DNA from: a phage | DNA: 64,000 nucleotides | Direction: 5' to 3' (one strand) | Sequence record: PZ445453.1 | In this document: one piece after another, positions 13,578 through 53,395 of the stretch | How positions within the stretch are numbered: the stretch's first letter is position 1 | How the letters are laid out: each line of letters begins with the position of its first letter | Translations under genes and position numbers: made by a program | The notes under the pieces: generated by a model | Told to the model about the DNA's origin: nothing | Seen by the model: the letters and a program-made list of their open reading frames with translations, nothing else | Databases searched by the model: none

Positions 13578-14390
13578 TTATTTAGTCAAATGATCTTCTA
13601 TCATTTTTATGAAAGCAGGATTGCTAAAAGCATCTGCGGCCTTTTCTCGATAAACAAAGACTCCTCTATCTTCGTAAAGAAGAGTTTCTTCGTAATTAAT
13701 TCCTGGGTTAACAACGATCATTTTTGTACCCATATTAAGTGCAGGGAATAATTCCCAATTAAAATTGATAACTTGGTTTGAACATCCTACTACTACAACC
13801 AAATCTTGCATGGTTAAAGTATCAAACAAGTGAGCCATATCTGCATACAAAGGTGCAGCCTCACCAAAAAATACAACATTAGGCTTCACCCAGTTATAAT
13901 CATCTATGTTTATACTGCTGTAACCAATATCTACCAGTGTCTTGTAATCTCCAGGATGCATACGATAAACTATTTCAGGAAGATATCCGTGCACGTGAAT
14001 AACAGAATCCCTGTCTACACCTGCTCGCTCTAGTAGATCATCGACGTTTGTTGTCAAGTTTACTACTTGGTTAGGATATTCCTTAAACCACTTTGCTATT
14101 TGAATATGTGCAGCATTAGGTTGTACATCTTTAAGCTCAACACGTCTTTTGTTATAAAATTCGTGTGTTTTGGCATACAAATCCATACCGTTCTCGTCTA
14201 CACCACCAACCACGGGAAGATCTGGAGATGTTCTAACACGATAACCTGCTTGGAAAGCTCCAATATCGCAGACCTCTTGTAAATCATATTCCTCCCATAA
14301 GGCACGACCACTATCTGTGTCTGTTCGGAATGTTCGAATCCCACTGTCTGCACTTAAACCAGCGCCACTGACAAAAATTACTCTTCGCAT
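13578..14390 (-). CDS. Sir2-family (sirtuin-like) NAD+-dependent enzyme lacking Zn-ribbon
   Basis: GAGLSADSGIRTFR, TTNVDDL and VHG motifs; no CxxC...CxxC module. Confidence 0.8.
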   Translation of the reverse strand: MRRVIFVSGAGLSADSGIRTFRTDTDSGRALWEEYDLQEVCDIGAFQAGYRVRTSPDLPVVGGVDENGMDLYAKTHEFYNKRRVELKDVQPNAAHIQIAKWFKEYPNQVVNLTTNVDDLLERAGVDRDSVIHVHGYLPEIVYRMHPGDYKTLVDIGYSSINIDDYNWVKPNVVFFGEAAPLYADMAHLFDTLTMQDLVVVVGCSNQVINFNWELFPALNMGTKMIVVNPGINYEETLLYEDRGVFVYREKAADAFSNPAFIKMIEDHLTK

Positions 14391-39378: not shown

Positions 39379-40101
39379 TTAAGCAATGATTGCTGCGATA
39401 TTAGGTTTAACAAAGGTAGATGGTTTCATAATTTTACCTTTGTCATCAAAGAATACGTATACCTTTTGAACTTCGTTATATACAGCGTGTACCCCAGTAT
39501 AAGAACCTTCTGCACGATCTTTGCTTCGCATCTCGATAGCATCACATTCTTTTTCGAGAGCTTCAATAATATCCTTAGTTTCCCAAATAGCCAGGAGTTG
39601 CTTCTTGGTAGGATACTTGGACTCATTGCTATTCAACACTTCACGCATAACCTTCTTCTCGTTATAAACAGAACGTACCAAAGTATCTCGTGCCATACGT
39701 GTAAGTGTAAGAGACATTAGGGCAAATTGCAAGTCATTTTCTACCATTTTATCAAATTCAATGATAACATCGTAGATGTTTTCTGCCAGAACATCTCCTG
39801 TCGGCATTTCCAGAGCTTTATCAACACCTTCTTTACCAAAGAACATAAACGCCAGGTAGGATGCTACCACAAAAATATCTGCTGCTGCATCAAGTAATTC
39901 AACGTGATCATTTTCCTGTGCTGCTGCTTGGAACTCTTTAAGTTCTTCTCGTACAAAAGAAAGTTGAGCTTCAAACATCTCTTGAGTAAATTCTGGAGTT
40001 ACTCCACCACGTGCCTTAGCATTCCAAGCAACAATTTGATCGGCAGCTTTGATAAAGAAGCTATTGTCCACTTTTACTTGTTTGAAAAAATTCTCGATCA
40101 T
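39379..40101 (-). CDS. MazG-like nucleotide pyrophosphohydrolase
   Basis: REELKEF ... DHVELLDAAADIFVVASYLA matches ExxE...ExxD all-alpha NTP-PPase signature. Confidence 0.5.
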   Translation of the reverse strand: MIENFFKQVKVDNSFFIKAADQIVAWNAKARGGVTPEFTQEMFEAQLSFVREELKEFQAAAQENDHVELLDAAADIFVVASYLAFMFFGKEGVDKALEMPTGDVLAENIYDVIIEFDKMVENDLQFALMSLTLTRMARDTLVRSVYNEKKVMREVLNSNESKYPTKKQLLAIWETKDIIEALEKECDAIEMRSKDRAEGSYTGVHAVYNEVQKVYVFFDDKGKIMKPSTFVKPNIAAIIA

Positions 40102-40299: not shown

Positions 40300-41415
40300 T
40301 TACTCTGCTGGTTCCCAAGTACCTGGAATCATCTTACGTACACGTACCCCAACAGGTTTGGTAGGAATACCTTCGTCTGAAAATTCTTCGTACTCTATTT
40401 CAACAAATTGACCAATAAGTGTCAAAGCATTTTCTTCTTTACGATAGTTAATGGTTTCATCTGAATCCTTACGCATCAGGAATTCGACTACTTTACCATT
40501 TTCCATCTCGCCTGTCAATACCCCGTCACCATTTTTATCACGTTTTGCACTGACTACCTTAACTTCAAGAGTCTGCCGTGGTTTACGTTTAATAACATCA
40601 TAAGAACGTTTATCAAACTCGTAAACACCTTGTGCGTTACGATACACCACACCTTCCGCTTTTTCACGTAGAGCCTTTGCATAGAATTCATCAAACTGCT
40701 CTTGGTTTTCAATGTATTCTGTATGTACTACACAAATAAGTTCATCTAAACCTTTATCTTCAACAACTTCTTTTAGAGCAGCTAAAACTTGAACCCTCTT
40801 CTCAAATGGTACAGATGGCACAGGAACATCATATACATAGTATTTAAGAAGCGGAGTGTTAGCATTATGCTTTTTCCACGCACTATTAATTTGTTGAAGG
40901 CTAAGGACACCCAAGCCAGCAAAAACTTCACCGTCAAGAGGATGACCAACTACTTCTTTAATGAAGGTTGGAATTTCTTTCCAGTGAGGTGGAAGTTTAT
41001 ATACCTCCCCAGCTTTAGATAAACATTCACCTTGCATGTTAATCATTGAACGTAGACCATTCAATTTATATTGTGCATAACCTGGGAACAAAACACGATC
41101 AGCATAATCTTTATAATCCTGACATTTCATGGGTGTGGAAGGAACATGGTTTTCAGCTTCCTCTTTTGTTTTATAATACCCATTCTTAAGTTGCTTTGTC
41201 CATTTGGCAAGAGCTTCTATTTCAGCTTGTTCTTCTGCTGTTGTTTCATTTGAGCGACCAATATTTTTAGGTTCTGCTGTATAAGATTTGCTAGTAATCT
41301 TTCCACCTAATTGACCATGAGCAACAGTTACAACACTACCTTCGGTATAGACTGACCACTGTTTAATTTTACCTGTAGAAGTTTTACCATATAATGTAGG
41401 ATTAGTTTGTTTCAT
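40300..41415 (-). CDS. ATP-dependent DNA ligase
   Basis: Motif I KLNGLR, III DGEVF, IV EGVVYR, V VIKRK; start trimmed to ATG 41415 with GGAGG RBS. Confidence 0.85.
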   Translation of the reverse strand: MKQTNPTLYGKTSTGKIKQWSVYTEGSVVTVAHGQLGGKITSKSYTAEPKNIGRSNETTAEEQAEIEALAKWTKQLKNGYYKTKEEAENHVPSTPMKCQDYKDYADRVLFPGYAQYKLNGLRSMINMQGECLSKAGEVYKLPPHWKEIPTFIKEVVGHPLDGEVFAGLGVLSLQQINSAWKKHNANTPLLKYYVYDVPVPSVPFEKRVQVLAALKEVVEDKGLDELICVVHTEYIENQEQFDEFYAKALREKAEGVVYRNAQGVYEFDKRSYDVIKRKPRQTLEVKVVSAKRDKNGDGVLTGEMENGKVVEFLMRKDSDETINYRKEENALTLIGQFVEIEYEEFSDEGIPTKPVGVRVRKMIPGTWEPAE

Positions 41416-41605
41416 CTTTAACCTCCAGTTGCGAAAGAACCCATTTAGCCATTTCAATTTCACCGTGTAGTCTGCCTAGTTCATAGGCATCATCAATATT
41501 ACCACCAGTGTAATCATCCACCATAAAGTAAGGATCTTCGCTACTGTTAGGTGCGTTTGCAATTCTCGTTAGTTCTTCAATAAATGTCATAGTTACCCTT
41601 ACCAA
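41402..41605 (-). CDS. hypothetical protein
   Basis: 67-aa ORF. Confidence 0.45.
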   Translation of the reverse strand: MVRVTMTFIEELTRIANAPNSSEDPYFMVDDYTGGNIDDAYELGRLHGEIEMAKWVLSQLEVKDETN

Positions 41606-42156: not shown

Positions 42157-42561
42157 TTATTGTAGCTTAAGTGAACTGCGAAGACGTTTCTCTTGCTGAT
42201 CACGAATATGTTGTGGAACCTCATGAATTGAGTCGTTACCGTGCCTATTTTCAACAACTAAAGAGATAACTTGATAACCAAACTCTTCAGCAAGAGTAAA
42301 ATAAGGTTTAAGTTCTTTCTCTGTGGTTGAAGTGTTAGAGACAATAATCTTTTTAATATTAGATGCCATAGCATCACGAACAATACTCTGACACCATGCG
42401 TGTGCTTTACCTACATTCTCTGGCTTCCAATCGTAAACACCACTTTCTGTGTAATGATATTGATCTGCCTCACAGATAGGCCAATAACCTTCAGAAATAA
42501 TTTCTGCTACTGTAGATTTACCTGCACCTGAAACACCACGTAAAATGATAAGTTGTTTCAT
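42157..42561 (-). CDS. P-loop kinase (polynucleotide-kinase-like)
   Basis: ILRGVSGAGKST Walker A at N-terminus, 134 aa. Confidence 0.6.
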   Translation of the reverse strand: MKQLIILRGVSGAGKSTVAEIISEGYWPICEADQYHYTESGVYDWKPENVGKAHAWCQSIVRDAMASNIKKIIVSNTSTTEKELKPYFTLAEEFGYQVISLVVENRHGNDSIHEVPQHIRDQQEKRLRSSLKLQ

Positions 42562-43494
42562 TTAACCCCCAAAGAAGTTTTCTATTTCTTTACGTCGCTC
42601 TTGTGGATCTAGAGCAGCCCATTGAACCTTCGTAAAATTATTTCGAAGCCATTCTAGCAAAGTATAATATTCTTCGTCAACAATTTGTTTAGCATTTTTT
42701 GGGTTGTCCCAAATCATATCCCACTTCTTATTGCCACCACGCATAAGGAACTTCTTAGCAAGATAGTATGGTGACTTAATCTTTAAGAGTAAGTTAAACG
42801 GATAGTTTGTTTCACGAACAACAAAGCCTTCGTGTCTACAATGTTTAGACATTTCAACAACATCTGAAAATTTAATCATCGGATAAACTTCAGGACGTTT
42901 AAACTTTGCAACAGATGCAATCCCATCAAGAACACCTTCAGGTAACATGAAACTTGTCCCATCAAGATTTTGAATTCTTGCTCCAATTAAGTATGCGCCT
43001 GGTTCTTCTTCGACAATATGTGGATCAGAAGGATCACAGATTTCAAAAAGGAAAGTTGCTTTTGCACTTTCTGTCCACTTAATGAAATACTCTATGTCGT
43101 CACACTCGGAAACAATACGGTTCTTTGCCATAATTGCAAAATCTGATTCTAGGCTCCCTGTTGTTGATACAACAAGTTTCCCTTTGTACACACCTACAGA
43201 TGCCATAAAACCGTTTACTTTACGGACAGCATCTACAAGTTCATCTGCTGGAAGATCTGTACCATTCTCAAAACGATTAAAGATTTTAGTAAAAGGCCAA
43301 ATAACAACATTGTCTTCTGAGTCAACAACCAACCCACGACAATCTAGAAGTCGTTTGTCAACGTTCCACAAATTATCCCAGAATACATTGTTTTTGTATT
43401 TAAGTACAGCAAGACCAGCATACTCTCCAGATTTAACTTCTTTTTTATGCACTAAACCTTTTGCAATCAGGTCATCACAATTGAACTTAGCCAC
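42562..43494 (-). CDS. RNA-ligase-like nucleotidyltransferase
   Basis: Motif I RKVNGFM, III FLFEICDP, IV HEGFVVRE, V LLLKIKSP. Confidence 0.6.
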   Translation of the reverse strand: MAKFNCDDLIAKGLVHKKEVKSGEYAGLAVLKYKNNVFWDNLWNVDKRLLDCRGLVVDSEDNVVIWPFTKIFNRFENGTDLPADELVDAVRKVNGFMASVGVYKGKLVVSTTGSLESDFAIMAKNRIVSECDDIEYFIKWTESAKATFLFEICDPSDPHIVEEEPGAYLIGARIQNLDGTSFMLPEGVLDGIASVAKFKRPEVYPMIKFSDVVEMSKHCRHEGFVVRETNYPFNLLLKIKSPYYLAKKFLMRGGNKKWDMIWDNPKNAKQIVDEEYYTLLEWLRNNFTKVQWAALDPQERRKEIENFFGG

Positions 43495-43495
43495 C

Positions 43496-44047
43496 TTAAT
43501 CTCCTTTGATTATCTTATGATGGTCTACAACAACAATATCACGTTTATCCATAATAGAGATGATTTCGTCAAAATGCAAGATTTTTCCGTGTGCATCCCA
43601 ACCAACATCCAACATTTTCCCATACAAATGATCAGGGAATGATCCGTGAGAGTGTCCGTGTAGCATGATTGATCCATGCCCTTGTTTATTCCAGGCAGCC
43701 ATAGGGTAATGGCTTAAGACGAAAAACAGCTTCTGATATTTCACTTCGTCATAATAAACCACTTCTCCATACTCTGCAAGCACTTTTCGGTGTTTGCTGT
43801 AATCATGGTTCCCAACACAATAAGTAATATCCCCTTGGAGGCGGGAAGCAATCTTACGGGTATCTTCTTCAGTCCCGAAACAGAAGTCCCCAAGATGGTA
43901 CATCTTTACTCCTGGTGTTGTGGCACATTTGTTCCATGCTTCGATCAGTGCTTCTGTCATATGCTCCATATCTTCCCACGGTCGATATTCAGGAGCAAAC
44001 TCTCGAATACGTTTGTGCATAAAATGCAAATCACTTGTAATAAACAT
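43496..44047 (-). CDS. calcineurin-like metallophosphoesterase
   Basis: SDLHF, LGDFCFG, GNHD, HGHSH motifs. Confidence 0.7.
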   Translation of the reverse strand: MFITSDLHFMHKRIREFAPEYRPWEDMEHMTEALIEAWNKCATTPGVKMYHLGDFCFGTEEDTRKIASRLQGDITYCVGNHDYSKHRKVLAEYGEVVYYDEVKYQKLFFVLSHYPMAAWNKQGHGSIMLHGHSHGSFPDHLYGKMLDVGWDAHGKILHFDEIISIMDKRDIVVVDHHKIIKGD

Positions 44048-44409
44048 TAGTATAATCCCTCGCTGAATAGTTCACTATCGTGACCATTTCTTTCATAGTT
44101 AATTTGTTTGGCGTTATCTGCAATGATATAAGCATCTTTGCGACTCCACCAATTATAATACTGATCAATAAACCCTTGATTATCAGGTAAGCAAAACAGT
44201 TTATCGATCAATCCTGCATCTTTTAAAACATTAAGTTGTGCAGATAGTACAGGATTTGCATGCCTAACACAAGGAATAATTAACTCTTCGCCATTGTTGA
44301 GAATATACTTATTCGCAGCGCAGACTATAACACGTTGAGCATAGTGATCCTCACCAATCCAGGTAAGAGGTTGGTAACAAATATCATGTTGATTAGTAGC
44401 GCACATCAA
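44047..44409 (-). CDS. hypothetical protein
   Basis: 120-aa ORF, ATGA overlap. Confidence 0.5.
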   Translation of the reverse strand: MMCATNQHDICYQPLTWIGEDHYAQRVIVCAANKYILNNGEELIIPCVRHANPVLSAQLNVLKDAGLIDKLFCLPDNQGFIDQYYNWWSRKDAYIIADNAKQINYERNGHDSELFSEGLY

Positions 44410-44564
44410 TTTTCTCCATACTCTTTTAATTTATCAGCGAAAAAACTGTAATCAGGAAGTAAAAGATCATTACTCGTATCGCTCCAGTTTTCTTCCTCTC
44501 TATAGATAAAATGCCCTTCATCCTCTTCTTGCTCTGACCAAACTGAATAATGCATAATACCTAC

Positions 44565-44939
44565 TTAATAGTTAACACGTTTAATTTCAACACCATAGGA
44601 TGAAATAAAATTTTCCTTAGCTAACATATATTTACCAGCAGCAGAAGGGTTTGATGTATGGACATAGATAGTTTTAAGAGCATCCCATTCACCCGCATAC
44701 AACATACATTCTACGTCTAAGAATGCATGATATCCTTCCTGATCTTCTCCAAGATCATTATCGAAGTGTATCTCTGAGATATTATTGAAATTATCTTCAT
44801 CTGAAACAAAAGATAACCAATCCTCAAAAGATTTTAACCAAATAGCATCCTCATAACCATAATCTTTAGGATCTCTTAAATCGTCTAACCAAAGAATTTT
44901 AGCCACTATCAACCCCCTTCCTGTTTCTCTTCTTTCCAA
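44565..44939 (-). CDS. hypothetical protein
   Basis: 124-aa ORF. Confidence 0.5.
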   Translation of the reverse strand: MERRETGRGLIVAKILWLDDLRDPKDYGYEDAIWLKSFEDWLSFVSDEDNFNNISEIHFDNDLGEDQEGYHAFLDVECMLYAGEWDALKTIYVHTSNPSAAGKYMLAKENFISSYGVEIKRVNY

Positions 44940-46941: not shown

Positions 46942-47835
46942 ATGAAAGTTAGTATTCTACATGGTGTTGACTGTTATGTTACTGATGTAGACGTTAAAGT
47001 GTTTACATTCTCTGGTGGAGAACAACATGTTCAATTAGATACGAACCTGTCAGGTTTCAATCATGCTACAGACAGAATCTTACTCACTTTAGAAGTAAGA
47101 TCTGCTAAAGACTTGATGACTTTGGTTATGACTAAGAATGCATTGGACAATATGCTGTATCATAAACCATATTGTGTTGATTTACTCATGTTGTATGTAC
47201 CGTATGCACGACAAGACAGAGTGTGTGAGCCTGGGGAAGCATTCGGAGTTAAAGCATTTGCTTCTATAATTAATTCATTAAATTTCTCACGTGTTATCGT
47301 TGCTGATCCACATAGTGATGTTACTCCAGCAGTGTTTGACAGACTTTGTGTAATACCTCAAGAAGAGATTGCTTACGAAACTTTAAAATGGAAGTTACGT
47401 ATGGAGAATTTTGCTCTTGTTAGCCCTGATGGTGGTGCTCTTAAGAAAATATTTAAATTATCTAAGAAAATGGCTTTAGATGTGTTCTGTGCAGAGAAGG
47501 TTAGAGATACCGCAACAGGTGCTATTGTTCGTACAGACATTTCTGTACAGGATTTCAATAAGCGTAACCTGATGATCGTAGATGATATCTGTGATGGTGG
47601 TAGAACTTTTATTGAGTTGGCTAAAGTGCTACGTGCTCGTAACGCAGGTAAGATTGAGTTGTATGTTACACACGGTATCTTTTCTAAAGGTCTTAAAGAG
47701 TTAAGTGAGCACTTTGACTGCATTCATTCTCTTAATGTGTGGGAAGATAACATCCAAGAAGATTCCGGTGTTCTTGTTAAGAATCAGTCAGATTTGCAGC
47801 AACAAATTGTATCTCCATACGTGTGGAATTTTTAA
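46942..47835 (+). CDS. prs: ribose-phosphate pyrophosphokinase (PRPP synthetase)
   Basis: MIVDDICDGGRTF PRPP-binding loop, ~297 aa. Confidence 0.8.
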   Translation: MKVSILHGVDCYVTDVDVKVFTFSGGEQHVQLDTNLSGFNHATDRILLTLEVRSAKDLMTLVMTKNALDNMLYHKPYCVDLLMLYVPYARQDRVCEPGEAFGVKAFASIINSLNFSRVIVADPHSDVTPAVFDRLCVIPQEEIAYETLKWKLRMENFALVSPDGGALKKIFKLSKKMALDVFCAEKVRDTATGAIVRTDISVQDFNKRNLMIVDDICDGGRTFIELAKVLRARNAGKIELYVTHGIFSKGLKELSEHFDCIHSLNVWEDNIQEDSGVLVKNQSDLQQQIVSPYVWNF

Positions 47836-47906: not shown

Positions 47907-49640
47907 ATGAATATTTTTGCACCTTTTGCTACTGATTGGTATAAACCTGGTCACAAGCAGATGTACAACCAAAATACAAAACTCATTTTCTCTAATTTAA
48001 CTCCTCGTAATGATAAAAACTTTGCACACTATGCAGATCGTGAAGCACGTGGTGTCATTGTTTTAGGTATTCGTCGAGCAGTAACCGATGCTCTTGTAAC
48101 TATGTGGGACGGCTTCTTTAAAATGTCTCGTAGTGCAGCAGTAAATAAATTTTATCGTATGTCTAAGAATGCATTAGGTGCTTCTGCTCCTTCTGCTGAG
48201 TGTTGGGGTGAATTGCACGATTTAGGTTATCTTCCGCTGGAAGTTCGATCTCTGCCGGAAGGTGTTTTGTGTCCTATTGGTGTTCCTGTGTTTACTGTGC
48301 ATAATACTTTAGAAAAATTCTTTTGGTTAACTAACTATGTGGAAACACTGTTGTCAGATGAAACTTGGAAGACAATGACTAATGCCACAGCAGCTTTTCA
48401 GTATAAGCGTATCGCTATGGCATATGCGATGGCAACGTGTGATAATATTGATCACGTTAACTTCCAGTGTCATGATTTTAGCCTACGTGGTTTAAGCAAT
48501 ATCGAAGATGGTTATAAGAGTGGTATCGCTCATTTGGCATCTTTCACAGGAACAGATAATATTCTGGCTATTGAAACTGTGCATGATTATTATGGTATTG
48601 ATTATGATCAGTTTGTTGCAGGTTCTATTCCGGCAACAGAACATTCAGTAGCAACAACTAACATTGGAGCTATTGTTGAAGATCTGAAGAAACATTTCCC
48701 ACATCTTAAAGATGATGTAGATGGGCTTCGTTATGTAGCAGAAAAAGAGTTTCTTCGTCGTTATATCGAAGAAATTGTTCCAGAAGGTTTTTGTTCATAT
48801 GTAGCAGACTCTTATGACTATTGGGCTGTATTGACTCGCATTCTGGTAGAATTGAAAGATTCCATTATGTCACGAAATGGTCGTCTTGTTATTCGTCCAG
48901 ATTCAGGAGATCCGGTTAAAGTTGTTGCAGGATACAATGTTGAATCTTTTGATAACTATGAAGACCTCTTAAATAATGGTATTGCGACAGCCACTGAAGT
49001 AGTTCATTTGGCTGATGTTAATAAGTATTACAATGTTCTTCAGGATTGCAGCGTTGCTGATTGTATTGACGAAACTTATGAGATTCCTTATTGTGAAGCA
49101 GTAGGTTCTATTCAAATCCTTTGGGAAGTGTTTGGTGGTACTATCAACCGAAAAGGCTACAAGGTTCTTGATCAGCATATCGGTATGATTTATGGCGATT
49201 CTATTACTGTTGAACGAGAACACGAAATCTTACGCCGACTGAAGAAGAAAGGTTTTGCAGCTTCCAATATTGTATTTGGTGTTGGTAGTTATACTTATCA
49301 GTTCAATACACGAGATACTTTTGGTTTTGCTGTTAAAGCAACAGGTAGTATTATCGGTGAACACGAGATTTTGGTAAGTAAAGAGCCTAAAACTGATCCT
49401 GGTAAACGCTCTGCAAAAGGTTTTATTAAGGTTGTTAAGGATGCCAATGGTAATCTCTCTCTTGTAGATAATCTTTCTTTTAAAGATATCCAGGATGAAG
49501 ACAATGAATTACAAGTTATCTTCAAGGATGGTAAGGTTATTATACCACAAGTAGAAGGACGTGATGAAACATTCACTGATATCCGCAACCGTGTTGACGT
49601 AGAGGTTCTTCGTACTATGGGAACCATCCAGGTTGACTAA
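47907..49640 (+). CDS. nadV: nicotinamide phosphoribosyltransferase (Nampt)
   Basis: N-terminal TDWYKPGHKQMY resembles Nampt DSYKVTHYKQYP; SFTGTDN block. Confidence 0.88.
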   Translation: MNIFAPFATDWYKPGHKQMYNQNTKLIFSNLTPRNDKNFAHYADREARGVIVLGIRRAVTDALVTMWDGFFKMSRSAAVNKFYRMSKNALGASAPSAECWGELHDLGYLPLEVRSLPEGVLCPIGVPVFTVHNTLEKFFWLTNYVETLLSDETWKTMTNATAAFQYKRIAMAYAMATCDNIDHVNFQCHDFSLRGLSNIEDGYKSGIAHLASFTGTDNILAIETVHDYYGIDYDQFVAGSIPATEHSVATTNIGAIVEDLKKHFPHLKDDVDGLRYVAEKEFLRRYIEEIVPEGFCSYVADSYDYWAVLTRILVELKDSIMSRNGRLVIRPDSGDPVKVVAGYNVESFDNYEDLLNNGIATATEVVHLADVNKYYNVLQDCSVADCIDETYEIPYCEAVGSIQILWEVFGGTINRKGYKVLDQHIGMIYGDSITVEREHEILRRLKKKGFAASNIVFGVGSYTYQFNTRDTFGFAVKATGSIIGEHEILVSKEPKTDPGKRSAKGFIKVVKDANGNLSLVDNLSFKDIQDEDNELQVIFKDGKVIIPQVEGRDETFTDIRNRVDVEVLRTMGTIQVD

Positions 49641-50387: not shown

Positions 50388-50463
50388 GGTTCCATAGCTC
50401 ACTGACGAGAGCGCACACCTCATAAGTGTCGAGGGCAGGGATTGTAACCCTGGGGAACCACCA
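50388..50463 (+). tRNA. tRNA-Met/Ile2-type (anticodon CAT), non-canonical T-loop
   Basis: Acceptor GGTTCCA/GGGAACC, D-stem GCTC/GAGC, anticodon loop CTCATAA, T-stem CAGGG/CCCTG with loop ATTGTAA, encoded CCA. Confidence 0.5.
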
Positions 50464-50494
50464 TTTAAAAGGAGGTGCTATGCATCTCCTATAT

Positions 50495-50580
50495 GCAAGT
50501 GTGGTGGAATTGGTGATACACATTGTGCTTAAAACGCAACGCTTAAATGATTGAGGGTTCGAATCCCTCCACTTGCACCA
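50495..50580 (+). tRNA. tRNA-Leu (anticodon TAA), type II
   Basis: Perfect 7-bp acceptor, anticodon stem TTGTG/CGCAA loop CTTAAAA, 13-nt variable arm, T-arm GAGGG-TTCGAAT-CCCTC, CCA. Confidence 0.75.
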
Positions 50581-50621
50581 ATCTAGGCTTCAATTTAAAT
50601 AATATTTTTAGTAAAAATATC

Positions 50622-50650
50622 TTGACATCTACTTAGTTTTTTGTTATAGT
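50622..50650 (+). promoter_or_regulatory. sigma70-like promoter TTGACA-N17-TATAGT
   Basis: Read upstream of tRNA-like gene at 50662. Confidence 0.55.
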
Positions 50651-50661
50651 TATTGTGAAAA

Positions 50662-50743
50662 CGGGGTGTATCTCACCTGACTTCTAATCAGGCGTTAACC
50701 GAGTAATTGGAGTATGCAGGTTCGAATCCTGTCACCCCGACCA
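50662..50743 (+). tRNA. tRNA-like gene with Arg(TCT) anticodon arm, atypical
   Basis: Acceptor CGGGGTG/CACCCCG, T-arm GCAGG-TTCGAAT-CCTGT and CCA are canonical, but only 7 nt separate acceptor from anticodon stem and a 23-nt variable region follows. Confidence 0.4.
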
Positions 50744-50761
50744 AAAAGTTTTAAAAACTAC

Positions 50762-50791
50762 TTGACAAGCAAGATAGTTTTATGTTAGAGT
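50762..50791 (+). promoter_or_regulatory. promoter TTGACA-N18-(TG)-TAGAGT
   Basis: cTTGACAagcaagatagttttaTGtTAGAGT. Confidence 0.45.
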
Positions 50792-50806
50792 TAAAATATG
50801 ATAACG

Positions 50807-50896
50807 GGAAGGTAGGGCGCAGCGGTGCGCAACCAGGTTTGAACCCTGGCCCATTGTAGCGATACGGTGATGGTTCGACTCCATTATCTTCCTCCA
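50807..50896 (+). tRNA. tRNA-Ser (anticodon TGA), type II
   Basis: Acceptor GGAAGGT/ATCTTCC, anticodon stem CCAGG/CCTGG loop TTTGAAC, long variable arm, T-loop TTCGACT, CCA. Confidence 0.7.
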
Positions 50897-50941
50897 AATT
50901 CAATTAGTAACAGATTCAGGTTGTTTTGAATAATTAAAAAC

Positions 50942-51027
50942 GGTAGATTGGTGAAATGGTAGCCACAACAGTTTGCTAAACTGTCGTCGGAAACGGCGTG
51001 TAGGTTCAAGTCCTACATCTACCGCCA
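50942..51027 (+). tRNA. tRNA-Ser (anticodon GCT), type II
   Basis: Acceptor GGTAGAT/ATCTACC, anticodon stem ACAGT/ACTGT loop TTGCTAA, variable hairpin, T-arm GTAGG-TTCAAGT-CCTAC, CCA. Confidence 0.75.
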
Positions 51028-51166
51028 AGTTATCTTTAATGTAGCTTGTACTCTTACTTTAGCAGAGTAAATCTTCGGCAAGTGGCAGTAACCACTTTAC
51101 CGATATCCCATAGTCAAGTGCCGCAAACACTGGCTATTTTAAAGATAATTTATACGAGGAGGATGT

Positions 51167-51547
51167 ATGCCAAGTAATGATTATATGCGGGAATACATGA
51201 AAACTCGGTGGCAGAAGCGAAGAGCTTCCGCAATCCTCCAGCTTGGAGGTAAATGTGTTAATTGTGGGTCTGTAGATGACTTGGAATTTGATCATAAAGA
51301 TTCAAGCGAGAAGAAGTTTTATATTAGTCGAATGAGTTCATGTTCGGAGGCTAAATGGCAAGAAGAACTTGCCAAATGTCAACTTTTGTGTCATGCTTGT
51401 CACATGAAGAAGACAAGAATTTCCCAAGACATGGGAAACAGAATTAGAACCACGGTGTGTGTTTGCGGAGCAGTATTCCATAGTACAAAGGCTTATGCTG
51501 GACATACACGGTGGTGTAAAGAGTATGCATCGTTAGCCAAGCGGTAA
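51167..51547 (+). CDS. HNH homing-type endonuclease inside tRNA cluster
   Basis: CVNCGS...EFDHKD...LLCHACH; last 21 nt overlap the start of tRNA-Lys. Confidence 0.7.
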   Translation: MPSNDYMREYMKTRWQKRRASAILQLGGKCVNCGSVDDLEFDHKDSSEKKFYISRMSSCSEAKWQEELAKCQLLCHACHMKKTRISQDMGNRIRTTVCVCGAVFHSTKAYAGHTRWCKEYASLAKR

Positions 51548-51601
51548 GGCACTTGACTTTTAATCAAGGGAGCGAAGGTTCGAATCCTTCACGATGTACC
51601 A
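51527..51601 (+). tRNA. tRNA-Lys (anticodon TTT)
   Basis: Acceptor GCATCGT/ACGATGT, anticodon stem CTTGA/TCAAG loop CTTTTAA, T-arm GAAGG-TTCGAAT-CCTTC, CCA. Confidence 0.75.
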
Positions 51602-51606
51602 AACAC

Positions 51607-51693
51607 GTAGGTATCGCATAGCGGCAATTGCTGGAGACTGTAAATCTCTTGCCCTTCGGGGCTTCGTTGGTTCGAGTCCAACTACCTGCACCA
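51607..51693 (+). tRNA. tRNA-Tyr (anticodon GTA), type II
   Basis: Acceptor GTAGGTA/TACCTGC, anticodon stem GGAGA/TCTCT loop CTGTAAA, long variable arm, T-loop TTCGAGT, CCA. Confidence 0.7.
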
Positions 51694-51700
51694 AATTAAA

Positions 51701-51785
51701 GATGGATTGGCCTAGTGGTTGGGCGACGGACTGTTAATCCGTGAACGAAAGTTCTAGCAAGGTTCAAATCCTTGATCCATCGCCA
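51701..51785 (+). tRNA. tRNA-Asn (anticodon GTT) with unusually long variable arm
   Basis: Perfect acceptor GATGGAT/ATCCATC, anticodon stem ACGGA/TCCGT loop CTGTTAA, ~15-nt variable hairpin GAAC-GAAA-GTTC, T-arm CAAGG-TTCAAAT-CCTTG, CCA. Confidence 0.6.
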
Positions 51786-51864
51786 AATAGTGCTTGTAGA
51801 GTTAATAGAAACCTCTAGAATTTTCTAGAATTGTAGGTATCAAATCCTACCAAGCAAATATTTT

Positions 51865-51939
51865 GCTCCTATCGTATAACGGCTATTACGGTTGCCTTGT
51901 AAGCAACTTATCAGGGTTCGAGTCCTTGTGGGAGCACCA
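51865..51939 (+). tRNA. tRNA-Thr (anticodon TGT)
   Basis: Acceptor GCTCCTA/TGGGAGC, anticodon stem GTTGC/GCAAC loop CTTGTAA, T-loop TTCGAGT, CCA. Confidence 0.75.
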
Positions 51940-51962
51940 ATTTTAACTCTAAAGGAGTATAT

Positions 51963-52286
51963 GTGACAGAAAAAGAGTTAGAGAAATATTTTAATATCAA
52001 TGTTTTCGATGGTTTTGATGACATTGAAGATGTTGAAAGATATTATGAAGTAGAGTTAGATAAGGATAACATTGTAATTCTTTCTGCCACTTATGATTGT
52101 GCATATTATGAAGGTGAATCTCACGTTTATTTTTATGATATGAAAACATCTTTGTTTTATGAAGTACACGCATATCATTGTTCTTGTTATGGCTTAGAAG
52201 GTCAGTGGGAACCTGAAGAAATAGGTGATTTGGACTTCACTGTTGCATATCTAAACAGACGTGGTGCATCTACTATTTTAAAATAA
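51963..52286 (+). CDS. hypothetical protein inside tRNA cluster
   Basis: 107-aa ORF with AAGGAG RBS. Confidence 0.5.
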   Translation: MTEKELEKYFNINVFDGFDDIEDVERYYEVELDKDNIVILSATYDCAYYEGESHVYFYDMKTSLFYEVHAYHCSCYGLEGQWEPEEIGDLDFTVAYLNRRGASTILK

Positions 52287-52300
52287 ATATCAAAAGCCTC

Positions 52301-52330
52301 TTGACAAAGGGGCTAATAATATGTTAGAGT
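52301..52330 (+). promoter_or_regulatory. promoter TTGACA-N18-(TG)-TAGAGT
   Basis: cTTGACAaaggggctaataataTGtTAGAGT upstream of tRNA-Gly. Confidence 0.45.
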
Positions 52331-52341
52331 AATATTGTTAA

Positions 52342-52416
52342 GCGGGTATAGTGTTAATGGTAGCATATGAGGTTTCCACCCTCCAGGTGCAGGTTCAAGT
52401 CCTGTTACTCGCTCCA
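52342..52416 (+). tRNA. tRNA-Gly (anticodon TCC)
   Basis: Acceptor GCGGGTA/TACTCGC, anticodon loop TTTCCAC, T-arm GCAGG-TTCAAGT-CCTGT, CCA. Confidence 0.65.
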
Positions 52417-52515
52417 AGATTATTTAAATGGAATCGCTAGAGAAAATTTCTCTTTTCGCTCATGGTTTTCTCCTTCAAACTCTAGCGGTTCTTTTTAAGT
52501 GATTTTTAGTTTTAT

Positions 52516-52590
52516 TGGAGATTAGCCTAGTGGGAAGGCAACGGCCTTTGAAGTCGTGATGACTAGGTTCGATTCCTAGATCTCCAGCCA
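52516..52590 (+). tRNA. tRNA-Gln (anticodon TTG)
   Basis: U1-A72 acceptor TGGAGAT/ATCTCCA, anticodon stem ACGGC/GTCGT loop CTTTGAA, T-arm CTAGG-TTCGATT-CCTAG, CCA. Confidence 0.75.
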
Positions 52591-52597
52591 AGATTTA

Positions 52598-52673
52598 CAG
52601 TGCGTAGCGCAGTTGGTAGCGTGGGAGCTTTGGACGCTTCAGGTCGCAGGTTCGAGTCCTGCCGCACTGACCA
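52598..52673 (+). tRNA. tRNA-Pro (anticodon TGG)
   Basis: Acceptor CAGTGCG/CGCACTG, D-arm GCGC-AGTTGGTA-GCGT, anticodon loop TTTGGAC, T-arm GCAGG-TTCGAGT-CCTGC, CCA. Confidence 0.78.
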
Positions 52674-52678
52674 AATTT

Positions 52679-52753
52679 GCAGAGATAGCTGAGACGGATT
52701 AGTGCTACCCTGAAAAGGTAGAAAGGATGGATCGTTACCATCTCTCTGCACCA
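52679..52753 (+). tRNA. tRNA-Phe (anticodon GAA), atypical T-loop
   Basis: Acceptor GCAGAGA/TCTCTGC, anticodon stem CTACC/GGTAG loop CTGAAAA, T-arm GATGG-ATCGTTA-CCATC, CCA. Confidence 0.65.
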
Positions 52754-52830
52754 AATAACACCATCCAAGGAGTAGACTTGGTTAACTGTCAATAGCACAT
52801 TGAGGCTTCTTACAGTGGTGTACTTATTAT

Positions 52831-52915
52831 GGCTAAGTGGTGGAATGGTATACACGATACGCTTAGAACGTATTGCCCCAAGGGATTGTGAGTTCGAGTC
52901 TCACCTTAGCTACCA
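52831..52915 (+). tRNA. tRNA-Leu (anticodon TAG), type II
   Basis: Acceptor GGCTAAG/CTTAGCT, anticodon stem ATACG/CGTAT loop CTTAGAA, 14-nt variable arm, T-arm GTGAG-TTCGAGT-CTCAC, CCA. Confidence 0.75.
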
Positions 52916-53003
52916 TATCTAAGAGATATCATAGGGTTTGCAACGGATATCTACCGTCCTGTTAAGGATACCACGCCAAGACGGGTTATAAAGGGTTAGC
53001 CAT

Positions 53004-53079
53004 TGATAGTGTGAAGCTGGCGTTTCGAGTGCTTTCATAAGGCATTGCGAGAAGAGTTCGATTCTCTTACTATCAACCA
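53004..53079 (+). tRNA. tRNA with CAT anticodon (Met or Ile2-lysidine type)
   Basis: Acceptor TGATAGT/ACTATCA, anticodon loop TTCATAA, T-arm AAGAG-TTCGATT-CTCTT, CCA. Confidence 0.55.
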
Positions 53080-53094
53080 AATTACTACAGATTG

Positions 53095-53173
53095 CGCGGG
53101 ATAGAGGAGTCTGGTCGTCCTCGCCAGTTTCATATGCTGGAGATCGTAGGTTCAAATCCTACTCCCGCCTCCA
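53095..53173 (+). tRNA. tRNA with CAT anticodon and unpaired 1:72
   Basis: Acceptor CGCGGGA/TCCCGCC with C1xC72 mismatch, D-stem GAGG/CCTC, anticodon stem CCAGT/GCTGG loop TTCATAT, T-arm GTAGG-TTCAAAT-CCTAC, CCA. Confidence 0.55.
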
Positions 53174-53231
53174 ATAAATACCTCCCTTCTGGTGTAATGA
53201 TTAAGTTACATTGACACTTCAAGGAACTCAT

Positions 53232-53314
53232 AGCCGGGTAGATTTAAAAGAGTATGGTACTCAATATGGCTCCAAACCATAGATCAAGGGGTTCGATTCC
53301 TCACCTTGCTGCCA
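53232..53314 (+). tRNA. tRNA-Trp (anticodon CCA); 5' boundary uncertain
   Basis: Perfect anticodon arm TATGG-CTCCAAA-CCATA (53265-53281), T-loop TTCGATT, 3' acceptor CCTTGCT + G + CCA; best 5' partner AGCCGGG at 53232 implies ~7 extra nt in D region. Confidence 0.45.
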
Positions 53315-53319
53315 ATTAT

Positions 53320-53395
53320 TGTGGTATCGTACAGATGGTTAGTACACTCGACCGATAATCGAGAAACAACGGTTCGACTCCGTTTACCACGACCA
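53320..53395 (+). tRNA. tRNA-Ile (anticodon GAT)
   Basis: Acceptor TGTGGTA/TACCACG, D-arm GTAC-AGATGGTTA-GTAC, anticodon stem CTCGA/TCGAG loop CCGATAA, T-arm AACGG-TTCGACT-CCGTT, CCA. Confidence 0.7.

What the first reader, a model, noticed from the sequence alone, without database searches (positions are those of the whole stretch)
42157..44047. Split three-gene RNA-repair cassette: kinase, RNA-ligase-like enzyme, metallophosphoesterase
Three adjacent co-oriented genes encode a P-loop kinase (Walker A GVSGAGKST), a ligase with covalent-nucleotidyltransferase motifs I, III, IV and V (KVNGF, FLFEICDP, EGFVVRE, LLLKIKSP) and a calcineurin-type phosphoesterase (GDFCFG, GNHD). Together these are the end-healing and sealing activities of Pnkp/Rnl tRNA repair, here as separate polypeptides using a metallophosphoesterase rather than the T4 HAD phosphatase. 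With about 18 phage tRNAs in the window, this suggests a counter-defence against host anticodon nucleases.
Basis: partly seen in the sequence, partly recalled or inferred. Interest (0 to 1): 0.7.

Follow-up and report, generated by a model that had tools for sequence, protein, structure and literature searches.

The report
Phage RNA heal-and-seal repair cassette
Three adjacent genes of coliphage JohannJBalmer (Bas62) encode a polynucleotide-kinase-like enzyme, a T4-Rnl1-type RNA ligase and a metallophosphoesterase, which most likely mend RNA such as tRNA cut by host defence nucleases; the cassette is real and widely conserved, but it is already annotated and already predicted in the literature, and nobody has tested it biochemically.

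Summary
Three tightly packed minus-strand genes lie at 42157-44047: a kinase (134 aa), a ligase (310 aa) and a metallophosphoesterase (MPE, 183 aa). All quoted motifs are present. The window is Escherichia phage JohannJBalmer (Bas62), and GenBank already labels these genes polynucleotide kinase, RNA ligase and putative phosphoesterase.

- **Ligase:** it is Rnl1-type by Pfam, by a profile hit to T4 Rnl1, and by fold. Its nearest solved structures are T4 Rnl1 and fungal Trl1; DNA ligases score far lower.
- **Kinase:** its nearest folds are Clostridium thermocellum Pnk and T4 Pnk. Nucleotide kinases score much lower.
- **Natural fusions:** kinase-ligase and ligase-kinase fusion proteins exist, one directly preceded by an MPE homolog.
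- **Linkage:** in 70 IMG/VR loci that carry this ligase, the MPE is within 10 kb in 67, the kinase in 64, and both in 62. They are usually adjacent, with the ligase in the middle.

The RNA-repair reading is therefore well supported by homology and linkage. The substrate (tRNA) and the counter-defence role remain inferred. Iyer et al. 2022 already described this neighbourhood type in rV5-like phages. Novelty is low.

The parts
42157..42561 (-). Standalone 5'-OH polynucleotide-kinase-like P-loop kinase (134 aa; bas62_0236).
   Evidence: Sequence: Walker A GVSGAGKST at aa 9-17. Invariant D33 aligns with the T4 Pnk general base D35.
Family hits: AAA_33 1.1e-9; phrog_2071 1e-57; phrog_505 'polynucleotide kinase' 6e-9.
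Profile against PDB: the best informative hits are Pnkp1 4xrp, T4 Pnk and C. thermocellum Pnk.
Fusions: found fused to homologs of the neighbouring ligase in P0318 and P0382.
42562..43494 (-). Rnl1-type ATP-dependent RNA ligase (310 aa; bas62_0237), with predicted adenylylation at K92.
   Evidence: Family hits: PF09511 3.9e-14, above its cut-off; phrog_562 4.6e-68.
Profile against PDB: T4 Rnl1 2c5u at 8.8e-10. The alignment matches R53, K70 and F72 to T4 R54, K75 and F77; motif I K92; motif III E151; motif IV E222-G223; motif V K238 and K240.
Structure: AF2 model pLDDT 92.2. Foldseek ranks T4 Rnl1 and fungal Trl1 ligase domains first.
Difference: it is 64 aa shorter than T4 Rnl1, with a short helical C-terminal region (aa 242-310).
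43496..44047 (-). Calcineurin-type binuclear metallophosphoesterase (183 aa; bas62_0238), the predicted 2',3'-cyclic-phosphate / 3'-phosphate end-healing enzyme.
   Evidence: Motifs: D6-x-H8, G53-D54, G79-N80-H81-D82, H113 and G131-H132-x-H134. All of these metal-ligand positions except D82 are invariant in four orthologues of 38-43% identity; D82 is Cys in the PaP1 orthologue (GNHC).
Family hits: phrog_547 4.8e-55. Metallophos_2 scores only 21.1 bits, below the 27-bit cut-off.
PDB: the only relative found is Aquifex aq_1665 (1xm7), of unknown function, at 6.6e-18.
Linkage: within 10 kb of the ligase in 67 of 70 viral loci.
44565..44939 (-). cREC (cyclic-phosphate processing receiver) domain protein. 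It is a lineage-specific accessory, predicted in the literature to open 2',3'-cyclic phosphates. GenBank starts it at the GTG at 44906.
   Evidence: Family hits: PF20274 3e-14, above its cut-off.
Conserved motifs: WLDDLRDP, DNDLGE and VHTSNPS are shared with the rV5-like and PVP-SE1 orthologues, where the gene sits directly next to the ligase.
Distribution: present in only 10 of 70 viral loci and in 353 phage records.
44047..44409 (-). T4 arn.3-family protein of unknown function, lying between the cREC gene and the MPE gene and translationally coupled to the MPE. Its membership of the system is uncertain.
   Evidence: Junctions: its stop overlaps the MPE start (TAATG). Its likely ATG at 44406 overlaps the stop of the upstream small ORF (ATGA).
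Family hits: phrog_839, unknown function, 3.2e-47. No Pfam or PDB relative was found.
Distribution: 1509 phage records, mostly T4-like phages where it is named arn.3. It lies near the ligase in only 3 of 70 viral loci.
44406..44555 (-). Small ORF (49 aa; bas62_0240) inside the same gene string, function unknown.
   Evidence: It is annotated in GenBank. It is packed between the cREC gene and the arn.3-like gene, with an overlapping stop and start. It was not studied further.

Best explanation
This is a phage-encoded RNA 'heal-and-seal' repair module whose three activities are carried by separate proteins. The proposed sequence of events is:
1. A host ribonuclease cuts an RNA, most plausibly a tRNA anticodon loop. 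The culprit would be a metal-independent nuclease of the PrrC, RloC, HEPN or colicin type. The cut leaves a 2',3'-cyclic phosphate and a 5'-OH.
2. The metallophosphoesterase opens and removes the cyclic or 3'-phosphate to give a 3'-OH. In this phage lineage the cREC protein may help.
3. The small P-loop kinase transfers a phosphate from an NTP to the 5'-OH.
4. The Rnl1-type ligase adenylylates itself on K92, transfers AMP to the new 5'-phosphate, and seals the break.

The six genes from the cREC gene to the kinase gene are translationally coupled. They are probably expressed together from the divergent intergenic region near 46.5-46.9 kb.

What is shown here: family and fold assignments, intact catalytic motifs, natural gene fusions, and conserved linkage. 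What is inferred: the enzymatic activities, the RNA substrate, and the counter-defence role.
For: Ligase:
- PF09511 at 3.9e-14.
- Profile hit to T4 Rnl1 with all nucleotidyl-transferase motifs and the Rnl1-specific upstream residues aligned.
- Fold closest to T4 Rnl1 and to Trl1 ligase domains, with DNA ligases about nine orders of magnitude weaker in E-value.

Kinase:
- The general-base Asp is conserved.

Fusions ('Rosetta stone' evidence):
- P0318 is kinase-ligase and occurs on three independent contigs.
- P0382 is ligase-kinase and is immediately preceded by an MPE homolog (30% identity, 1.6e-25).
- The same kinase family is also found fused to HD and CNPase end-healing domains.

Linkage:
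- In 70 IMG/VR loci (ligase identity 30-96%), the MPE is present in 67, the kinase in 64, both in 62, and both within 3 kb in 59.
- The ligase is central in both gene orders: MPE-ligase-kinase in 33 loci and kinase-ligase-MPE in 27.

Phyletic match:
- The ligase is in 684 phage records and the kinase in 622, with nearly identical genus counts.

Other support:
- MPE catalytic motifs are conserved in all four orthologues compared; only the last residue of GNHD varies (GNHC in PaP1).
- There is precedent for a metallophosphoesterase healing 2',3'-cyclic phosphate ends: C. thermocellum Pnkp and lambda phosphatase (PMC2190708).
- A cREC gene sits in the same gene string.
- Independent published predictions exist for orthologous genes (PMC9503650; PMC12846349).
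Against: - My literature searches found no biochemical or genetic test of any member of this ligase, kinase or MPE family.
- The MPE's only solved relative, aq_1665, has no known function. It shows no specific similarity to the C. thermocellum Pnkp or lambda phosphatases.
- The MPE family is about twice as widespread (1324 records) as the ligase. It occurs in Staphylococcus, Listeria and Bacillus phages that did not match this ligase, so it may have a broader or different substrate.
- The kinase lacks the equivalent of T4 Pnk R38 (it has H36) and is unusually small.
- The ligase lacks a T4-like C-terminal domain of comparable size, so tRNA specificity cannot be assumed.
- T4 Pnk-type kinases also act on DNA, and an ATP-dependent DNA ligase lies about 700 bp downstream.
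- E. coli K-12, the isolation host, is not known to carry an anticodon nuclease (my own knowledge).
Confidence: 0.7

Rival explanations
1. NAD-linked, yeast-like repair pathway, as proposed by Iyer et al. 2022. The cREC protein opens the cyclic phosphate to a 2'-phosphate. The Rnl1/Trl1-like ligase seals ends that carry a 2'-phosphate. The phage sirtuin then removes the junction 2'-phosphate using NAD+, as Tpt1/KptA does. In this reading the MPE and the MazG-like protein process by-products.
For: - cREC, a kinase, a T4-like ligase, a MazG-like protein and a sirtuin are adjacent in rV5-like phages and in PVP-SE1.
- The proposal is published (PMC9503650).
- By fold, the ligase is as close to Trl1 ligase domains as to T4 Rnl1.
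- A sirtuin orthologue exists in this window at 13578-14390.
- A NARP1-like NAD+ reconstitution gene pair starts about 2 kb upstream of the cREC gene (its first gene, Prs-like, is at 46942-47835) and accompanies the core in 29 of 70 loci.
Against: - In this phage the sirtuin is 28 kb away from the cassette.
- Sir2 and cREC accompany the ligase in only 11 and 10 of 70 viral loci, whereas the MPE and the kinase accompany it in 67 and 64. The conserved unit is therefore MPE-ligase-kinase, not the sirtuin set.
- No sirtuin is known to remove RNA 2'-phosphates.
- An MPE that yields 2',3'-OH ends would make a 2'-phosphate route unnecessary.
Confidence: 0.12
2. DNA-end healing. The kinase and the MPE would convert 5'-OH and 3'-phosphate DNA nicks into ligatable ends for the neighbouring ATP-dependent DNA ligase during replication, recombination or repair of nuclease damage. 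The RNA-ligase-like protein would be a side player.
For: - An ATP-dependent DNA ligase (40300-41463), exonucleases and a recombinase lie just downstream on the same strand.
- A DNA ligase is within 10 kb in 24 of 70 loci.
Against: - The kinase is fused to, and flanks, the Rnl1-type RNA ligase, not the DNA ligase.
- DNA ligase linkage (24 of 70) is much weaker than MPE or kinase linkage to the RNA ligase.
- Nothing here suggests that the RNA ligase is dispensable.
Confidence: 0.07
3. Housekeeping processing of the phage's own RNAs rather than counter-defence. Examples would be maturation or quality control of the 16 phage tRNAs, or repair of self-inflicted cuts by phage endoribonucleases.
For: - The cassette is found in phage lineages that carry tRNA clusters: this window, the rV5-like phage Murica and Pakpunavirus (PMC12846349).
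- The enzymology would be identical to that of repair.
Against: - None of the tRNAs was reported by ARAGORN as containing an intron.
- The known precedent for this enzyme trio in phages is counter-defence (T4 against PrrC; established knowledge).
- The module sits beside a homolog of a proven anti-defence operon, NARP1.
Confidence: 0.07
4. Nucleotide-signal or ADP-ribose metabolite processing. The MPE, cREC and kinase would act on small molecules (cyclic nucleotides, or ADPR derivatives with cyclic or terminal phosphates) to blunt immune signalling or to feed NAD+ reconstitution.
For: - The module is adjacent to the NARP1-like genes.
- cREC is predicted to act on either RNA ends or 1''-2'' cyclic ADPR phosphate (PMC9503650).
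- Phages do extend NARP1 with a phosphatase (bioRxiv 10.64898/2026.01.28.702374).
Against: - That NARP1-associated phosphatase is a Macro-domain protein, not a metallophosphoesterase.
- This reading does not explain the invariable central position of an RNA ligase.
Confidence: 0.04

Closest known systems
Phage T4 Pnkp (pseT) plus Rnl1 (gene 63) tRNA repair against the PrrC anticodon nuclease
   Same: - The same three chemical steps: 5'-kinase, 3'/cyclic phosphatase, and ATP-dependent sealing.
- The ligase belongs to the same Pfam family and fold clade, and the Rnl1 catalytic residues are conserved.
- The kinase has the same fold and general-base Asp as the T4 Pnk domain.
   Different: - The phosphatase is a binuclear metallophosphoesterase, not a HAD (DxDxT) domain, and is a separate protein.
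- The kinase is a 134-aa standalone protein.
- The ligase is 64 aa shorter, with a different C-terminal region. It is too divergent from T4 Rnl1 for single-sequence search to detect, and the Escherichia record count (199) is far below that of a family shared with T4-like phages (689 for the arn.3-like protein), so T4-like phages evidently do not match at 1e-5.
- The three genes are contiguous here, whereas pseT and gene 63 are not adjacent in T4 (my own knowledge).
Bacterial Pnkp/Hen1 and Pnkp1-Rnl-Hen1 RNA repair systems (Clostridium thermocellum, Capnocytophaga gingivalis)
   Same: - The same domain trio of kinase, metallophosphoesterase and ligase.
- These systems are the precedent for a metallophosphoesterase healing 2',3'-cyclic phosphate ends (PMC2190708).
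   Different: - Here there are three separate polypeptides instead of one.
- The ligase is Rnl1-type. It is not the Pnkp C-terminal ligase domain.
- The MPE is of the aq_1665 type and shows no detectable specific similarity to lambda-phosphatase-type domains.
- No Hen1 methyltransferase was seen among the ORFs scanned.
Sirtuin-centred predicted RNA-repair neighbourhood of rV5/Mydo-type phages (Iyer, Burroughs, Anantharaman and Aravind 2022, PMC9503650)
   Same: - Orthologous genes: T4-like ligase, cREC, 'nucleotide kinase', MazG-like pyrophosphatase and calcineurin-like phosphoesterase.
- This window is the phi92-like (Justusliebigvirus) version of that neighbourhood.
   Different: - The sirtuin is not in the neighbourhood here; it lies 28 kb away.
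- My survey shows that the phosphoesterase is a near-constant partner of this ligase (67 of 70 loci), not an 'occasional' one. The sirtuin, cREC and MazG are the lineage-specific parts.
Fungal and plant tRNA ligase Trl1 (ligase-kinase-CPD)
   Same: - The ligase fold matches Trl1 ligase domains about as well as it matches T4 Rnl1.
- Natural ligase-kinase fusions of this phage family mimic the Trl1 ligase-kinase arrangement.
   Different: - Trl1 uses a 2H cyclic phosphodiesterase and needs a 2'-phosphate at the junction, which Tpt1 later removes.
- Here the partner is a metallophosphoesterase, and whether a 2'-phosphate is required is unknown.

Membership tests
Rnl1-type ATP-dependent RNA ligase (PF09511; T4 Rnl1 / Trl1 ligase-domain clade) | Covalent nucleotidyl-transferase motifs I (KxxG lysine nucleophile), III, IV and V | tested here: met
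   K92-V-N-G95, E151, E222-G223, and K238 with K240 align to T4 K99, E159, E227-G228, and K240 with K242. They are invariant in 39 homologs.
Rnl1-type ATP-dependent RNA ligase (PF09511; T4 Rnl1 / Trl1 ligase-domain clade) | Rnl1-specific essential residues upstream of motif I (T4 R54, K75, F77) | tested here: met
   R53, K70 and F72 align to them. R53 and K70 are invariant and F72 is at least 90% conserved. That these residues are essential in T4 is from my knowledge of the T4 Rnl1 mutational literature.
Rnl1-type ATP-dependent RNA ligase (PF09511; T4 Rnl1 / Trl1 ligase-domain clade) | Family HMM above the curated cut-off, and fold closest to Rnl1 members | tested here: met
   PF09511 scores 53.5 bits against a cut-off of 28.3. 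Foldseek ranks 1-10 are T4 Rnl1 and fungal Trl1 ligase domains.
Rnl1-type ATP-dependent RNA ligase (PF09511; T4 Rnl1 / Trl1 ligase-domain clade) | T4-type C-terminal domain (aa 255-374), which confers tRNA specificity | tested here: inconclusive
   The protein ends at aa 310. Residues 242-310 form six short helices. The sequence-profile alignment to T4 stops at motif V. No equivalence of the C-terminal regions was established.
Rnl1-type ATP-dependent RNA ligase (PF09511; T4 Rnl1 / Trl1 ligase-domain clade) | RNA 3'-OH / 5'-phosphate sealing activity | not testable with these tools
   This needs purified protein.
5'-OH polynucleotide kinase (T4 Pnk / C. thermocellum Pnk clade of P-loop kinases) | P-loop GxxGxGK[ST], plus a general-base Asp about 20 residues downstream | tested here: met
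   The P-loop G9-V-S-G-A-G-K15-S-T is present. D33 is invariant in 37 homologs and aligns with T4 D35.
5'-OH polynucleotide kinase (T4 Pnk / C. thermocellum Pnk clade of P-loop kinases) | Fold nearer to polynucleotide kinases than to nucleotide or small-molecule kinases | tested here: met
5'-OH polynucleotide kinase (T4 Pnk / C. thermocellum Pnk clade of P-loop kinases) | Arg equivalent to T4 R38, which contacts the acceptor nucleotide | tested here: not met
   The aligned residue is H36 here, and W, Q or H in more distant orthologues. The role of R38 is from my own knowledge.
5'-OH polynucleotide kinase (T4 Pnk / C. thermocellum Pnk clade of P-loop kinases) | Phosphorylation of 5'-OH RNA or DNA | not testable with these tools
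   This needs an enzyme assay.
T4-type bifunctional Pnkp | Kinase fused to a HAD (DxDxT) 3'-phosphatase domain | tested here: not met
   The protein is 134 aa with a kinase domain only. Nearly all homologs are 126-150 aa.
Bacterial Pnkp (C. thermocellum type) with Hen1 | Kinase, metallophosphoesterase and ligase in one polypeptide, with a Hen1 methyltransferase partner | tested here: not met
   There are three separate ORFs. No methyltransferase was found among the neighbouring ORFs scanned.
Bacterial Pnkp (C. thermocellum type) with Hen1 | Phosphatase domain of the lambda-phosphatase type | tested here: not met
   A profile of four MPE orthologues finds only aq_1665 (6.6e-18) in the PDB. Neither C. 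thermocellum Pnkp nor lambda phosphatase appears at E up to 1.
Calcineurin-like binuclear metallophosphoesterase superfamily | Five metal-ligand motifs: DxH, GD, GNH[DE], H and GHxH | tested here: met
   D6/H8, G53-D54, G79-N80-H81-D82, H113 and G131-H132-x-H134. All except D82 (Cys in the PaP1 orthologue) are invariant in four orthologues. The Pfam Metallophos_2 hit alone is below its cut-off (21.1 against 27 bits).
rV5/Mydo-type sirtuin-centred RNA-repair neighbourhood (Iyer et al. 2022) | Sirtuin gene adjacent to the T4-like ligase, cREC, kinase and MazG | tested here: not met
   The ligase, cREC, kinase and MazG-like genes are all within 5.6 kb. The Sir2 orthologue (PF02146, 3e-22) is at 13578-14390, 28 kb away.

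The most novel reading that the evidence does not exclude
The cassette is one arm of an NAD+-linked, eukaryote-like tRNA repair route in a phage. The cREC protein would open the cyclic phosphate to a 2'-phosphate. The Rnl1/Trl1-like ligase would seal 2'-phosphate ends. The phage sirtuin would act as a Tpt1-like NAD-dependent 2'-phosphotransferase. The neighbouring NARP1-like genes would keep NAD+ available. This would be a new sirtuin chemistry, and a functional coupling of RNA repair to NAD+ reconstitution.
Probability: 0.1. Interest if true: 0.7.

Novelty: already known. Interest (0 to 1): 0.3.

Why it matters
tRNA-cleaving defences are now recognised as common. Examples are PrrC, RloC, Retron-Eco7 (PtuAB), PARIS, Septu, OLD and Cas13. 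Phage tRNA genes are seen as one escape route. This module would be the complementary route, repair rather than replacement, and it is widespread. The ligase occurs in about 680 of 50,697 sequenced phage records, including therapeutic candidates of the rV5-, phi92-, PVP-SE1- and Pakpunavirus types.

The module sits in a genetically tractable BASEL-collection phage, next to homologs of the NARP1 operon, which was proven to be an anti-defence system in the sibling phage Bas63. A deletion-and-challenge experiment is therefore straightforward.

The only modest additions from this work are:
- The MPE-ligase-kinase trio, not the sirtuin set, is the conserved evolutionary unit.
- Natural ligase-kinase fusions exist.
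- The metallophosphoesterase is the likely 'missing 3'-phosphatase' noted for Pakpunavirus.

Tried and rejected
- **Single-sequence PDB search with the ligase** found nothing. A 39-sequence profile was needed to reach T4 Rnl1.
- **NCBIfam** gave no useful hit for the ligase, the MPE, the cREC protein or the arn.3-like protein.
- **The promoter and terminator scan** of 39-47 kb was no better than shuffled sequence (30 sites against 27.2 expected). It gives no operon boundaries.
- **The arn.3-like ORF (44047-44409)** has no Pfam or PDB relative. It is common in T4-like phages and rarely lies near the ligase elsewhere (3 of 70 loci). I do not count it as a core component.
- **The PHROG label 'tail fiber protein attachment catalyst'** is inherited from T4 gp63. 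Nothing here bears on it, so I rejected it as an explanation.
- **The idea that the MPE is the phosphatase that extends NARP1** (bioRxiv 2026.01.28.702374) was checked. That enzyme is a Macro-domain protein, so there is no support.
- **Literature searches** for an experimental test of this ligase, kinase or MPE family, or of Bas62 and Bas63 RNA repair, found none.
- **A paper I could not read:** Burroughs and Aravind 2016 (NAR) is not held in the library.
- **A slip of my own:** early Python attempts to read loci L002-L004 failed because several loci share one FASTA file. This was resolved.


Full report
**Source and observation.** The window is 100% identical to Escherichia phage JohannJBalmer (Bas62, MZ501084.1), a phi92-like myovirus of the genus Justusliebigvirus in the subfamily Stephanstirmvirinae, from the BASEL collection. 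The reported interval holds three minus-strand ORFs:
- kinase, 42157-42561, 134 aa;
- ligase, 42562-43494, 310 aa;
- metallophosphoesterase (MPE), 43496-44047, 183 aa.

The genes abut. The MPE stop TAA is followed by one base and the ligase GTG start, behind an AAAGGAG ribosome-binding site. The ligase stop TAA is followed directly by the kinase ATG. GenBank already names the three genes 'polynucleotide kinase', 'RNA ligase' and 'putative phosphoesterase' (bas62_0236 to bas62_0238). ARAGORN finds 16 tRNA genes at 50388-53395, not about 18.

The same tightly packed minus-strand string continues upstream with three more genes:
- an arn.3-like ORF at 44047-44409, whose stop overlaps the MPE start;
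- a 49-aa ORF;
- a cREC gene at 44565-44939 (PF20274, 'cyclic-phosphate processing receiver domain', 3e-14).

Downstream on the same strand lie three small ORFs, an ATP-dependent DNA ligase (40300-41463) and a MazG-like pyrophosphatase (39379-40101).

**Ligase.**
- It matches PF09511 (RNA_lig_T4_1) at 3.9e-14, above the curated cut-off, and phrog_562 at 4.6e-68.
- A single-sequence search of the PDB found nothing. A 39-sequence profile hits T4 Rnl1 (2c5u) at 8.8e-10.
- That alignment puts R53, K70 and F72 on T4 R54, K75 and F77. It puts K92 on the T4 nucleophile K99, E151 on E159, E222-G223 on E227-G228, and K238 with K240 on K240 with K242. These positions are invariant or nearly so in the family.
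- An AlphaFold2 model (pLDDT 92.2) finds T4 Rnl1 and fungal Trl1 ligase domains first (E 2e-13 to 3e-11). Archaeal Rnl3, Rnl2 and Rnl5 follow. DNA ligases appear only at E 2e-4 or weaker.
- So this is an Rnl1-clade RNA ligase. It is 64 residues shorter than T4 Rnl1, and its helical C-terminal region (aa 242-310) could not be equated with the T4 tRNA-specificity domain.

**Kinase.**
- It matches AAA_33 at 1.1e-9, phrog_2071 at 1e-57, and more weakly phrog_505 'polynucleotide kinase'.
- Sequence-profile hits to the PDB are weak (5e-4 to 5e-3). The informative ones are consistently Pnkp1, T4 Pnk, C. thermocellum Pnk and a Trl1-type kinase.
- D33, invariant in the family, aligns with the T4 general base D35. 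The T4 R38 equivalent is not conserved.
- An exhaustive profile search finds 13,248 cluster representatives, nearly all standalone proteins of 126-150 aa. The exceptions are informative:
  - P0318 is kinase plus an Rnl1-like ligase. phmmer to our ligase gives 1e-64, and the protein occurs on three independent contigs.
  - P0382 is ligase plus kinase.
  - P0281 is an HD domain plus kinase.
  - P0325 is kinase plus CNPase.
- In the P0382 contig, the gene immediately upstream is an MPE homolog (30% identity, 1.6e-25). That reproduces the window's MPE-ligase-kinase order with the last two genes fused.

**Metallophosphoesterase.**
- The five metal-ligand motifs are conserved in orthologues of only 38-43% identity; every ligand position is invariant except the final Asp of GNHD, which is Cys in the PaP1 orthologue.
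- It matches phrog_547 at 4.8e-55. The Pfam Metallophos_2 hit is below its cut-off.
- The only solved relative is Aquifex aq_1665 (1xm7, 6.6e-18), whose function is unknown. The C. thermocellum Pnkp phosphatase domain and lambda phosphatase are not detected.
- Its assignment as the 3'-end healing enzyme therefore rests on linkage, and on the precedent that metallophosphoesterases can heal 2',3'-cyclic phosphate ends (PMC2190708). It does not rest on specific homology.

**Linkage elsewhere.**
- In the phage collection the ligase occurs in 684 records and the kinase in 622, with almost identical genus counts (ligase/kinase): Escherichia 199/198, Pseudomonas 175/173, Klebsiella 36/36, Acinetobacter 24/24.
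- The MPE is broader, at 1324 records, including Staphylococcus, Listeria and Bacillus phages.
- Annotated examples show the same genes clustered: Murica (rV5-like), PVP-SE1 and Pseudomonas phage PaP1.
- A scan of IMG/VR with the ligase alignment gave 70 loci at 30-96% identity, 58 of them below 50%. Within 10 kb, 67 have the MPE, 64 have the kinase and 62 have both. Both are within 3 kb in 59 loci.
- Thirty-three loci have the order MPE-ligase-kinase, as here, and 27 have kinase-ligase-MPE. The median gaps between matches are about 120-160 bp. About half of the loci lacking one partner lie at a contig end.
- By contrast cREC (10), Sir2 (11), MazG (13) and the arn.3-like gene (3) are lineage-specific. 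A NARP1-like Prs/Adps gene is nearby in 29 loci.

**Mechanism.** The best-supported reading is a split heal-and-seal RNA repair pathway, as laid out under Best explanation. The MPE, perhaps helped by cREC in this lineage, removes a 2',3'-cyclic or 3'-phosphate. The kinase phosphorylates the 5'-OH. The Rnl1-type ligase seals the break through a K92-AMP intermediate. Shown here are the family and fold assignments, the intact catalytic residues, the fusions and the linkage. Inferred are the activities, tRNA as the substrate, and the counter-defence role. The last two come by analogy with T4 Pnkp/Rnl1 against PrrC (established knowledge), and from co-occurrence with a tRNA cluster and with anti-defence genes. 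I put this reading at about 0.7. The rivals are:
- an NAD-linked, Trl1/Tpt1-like route using cREC and the sirtuin (Iyer et al. 2022);
- DNA-end healing for the nearby DNA ligase;
- housekeeping processing of phage RNAs;
- small-molecule processing of ADPR derivatives or cyclic nucleotides.

The last rival is weakened because the phosphatase known to extend NARP1 is a Macro-domain protein, not an MPE.

**Comparison with what is known, and novelty.**
- The system works like T4 Pnkp plus Rnl1. It has the domain trio of bacterial Pnkp. It is not a member of either architecture: it has no HAD domain, it is not a single polypeptide, its MPE is of a different type, and no Hen1 was seen.
[quoted passage not shown] In Bas62, however, the sirtuin lies 28 kb away at 13578-14390.
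- A 2025 Pakpunavirus paper interprets the orthologous kinase and ligase as tRNA repair. It remarks that the kinase lacks a 3'-phosphatase domain, without linking the neighbouring MPE (PMC12846349).
- I found no experimental characterisation of any member.
- The finding is correct but already known at the level of annotation and prediction. The increments here are the near-universal MPE-ligase-kinase core, the natural fusions, and the structural evidence that the kinase is of the polynucleotide-kinase type. Interest is about 0.3.

Noticed in passing
window 46942-47835 (+) and the next gene, about 47907-49640 (+): A Prs-like gene (PF00156, PF14572) sits beside a gene that GenBank annotates as nicotinamide phosphoribosyltransferase. 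These look like the Adps and Namat pair of NARP1. NARP1 is the NAD+ reconstitution anti-defence operon that was proven experimentally in the sibling phage Bas63 (bioRxiv 10.1101/2024.02.11.579819). A Prs/Adps homolog lies within 10 kb of the RNA-repair core in 29 of 70 viral loci. That recurrent association is unexplained.
   Followed up: partly
window 13578-14390 (-): A Sir2-family protein (PF02146, 3e-22) is orthologous at 48-55% identity to the sirtuins that sit directly beside the RNA ligase in the rV5-like phage Murica and in PVP-SE1. In Bas62 it is separated from the cassette by 28 kb.
   Followed up: partly
window 39379-40101 (-) and 40300-41463 (-): A MazG-like nucleotide pyrophosphohydrolase (PRA-PH, 3.2e-7; phrog_671) and an ATP-dependent DNA ligase (PF01068; phrog_114, 2.3e-75) lie downstream on the same strand. 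Both recur near the cassette in rV5-like phages and PVP-SE1, and the DNA ligase also in PaP1.
   Followed up: partly
window 44047-44409 (-): The ORF embedded between the cREC gene and the MPE gene belongs to the T4 arn.3 family. This family has 1509 phage records, mostly T4-like phages. One record calls it a 'putative tRNA processing enzyme', and automated 'anti-restriction nuclease' labels in related phages seem to derive from it. Its function is unknown.
   Followed up: partly
window 50388-50463 and 53004-53079 (+): ARAGORN predicts two tRNA-Met(CAT) genes that are not in the GenBank feature table for this region. With the annotated fMet there are three CAT-anticodon tRNAs, and one may be a lysidine-type tRNA-Ile.
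   Followed up: no
window 51701-51785 (+): The tRNA-Asn(GTT) is called at 85 nt, unusually long for a class I tRNA. This suggests an insertion, a long variable arm or a miscall.
   Followed up: no
window about 51167-51547 (+): A 'putative homing endonuclease' CDS (bas62_0256) sits inside the tRNA cluster. By the GenBank coordinates it overlaps the start of tRNA-Lys(TTT) by about 21 nt.
   Followed up: no
public records MG065639, MG065645, MG065656, MG065689 and others (hits H19-H22): About 23 records labelled 'Campylobacter phage' with host C. jejuni are roughly 146-kb genomes. The four listed for this region (H19-H22) are 97% identical to it and therefore look like phi92-type coliphages, while others match the rV5-type ligase at only about 47% identity. 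They are probably mislabelled or contaminant assemblies.
   Followed up: no
L003 (Pseudomonas phage PaP1) 5493-6053, and protein P0281: HD-domain phosphohydrolases also associate with this module. One is a neighbour of the MPE in PaP1. One is fused to the kinase in P0281, an architecture like HD-Pnk. This suggests that the 3'-end healing enzymes are interchangeable.
   Followed up: no
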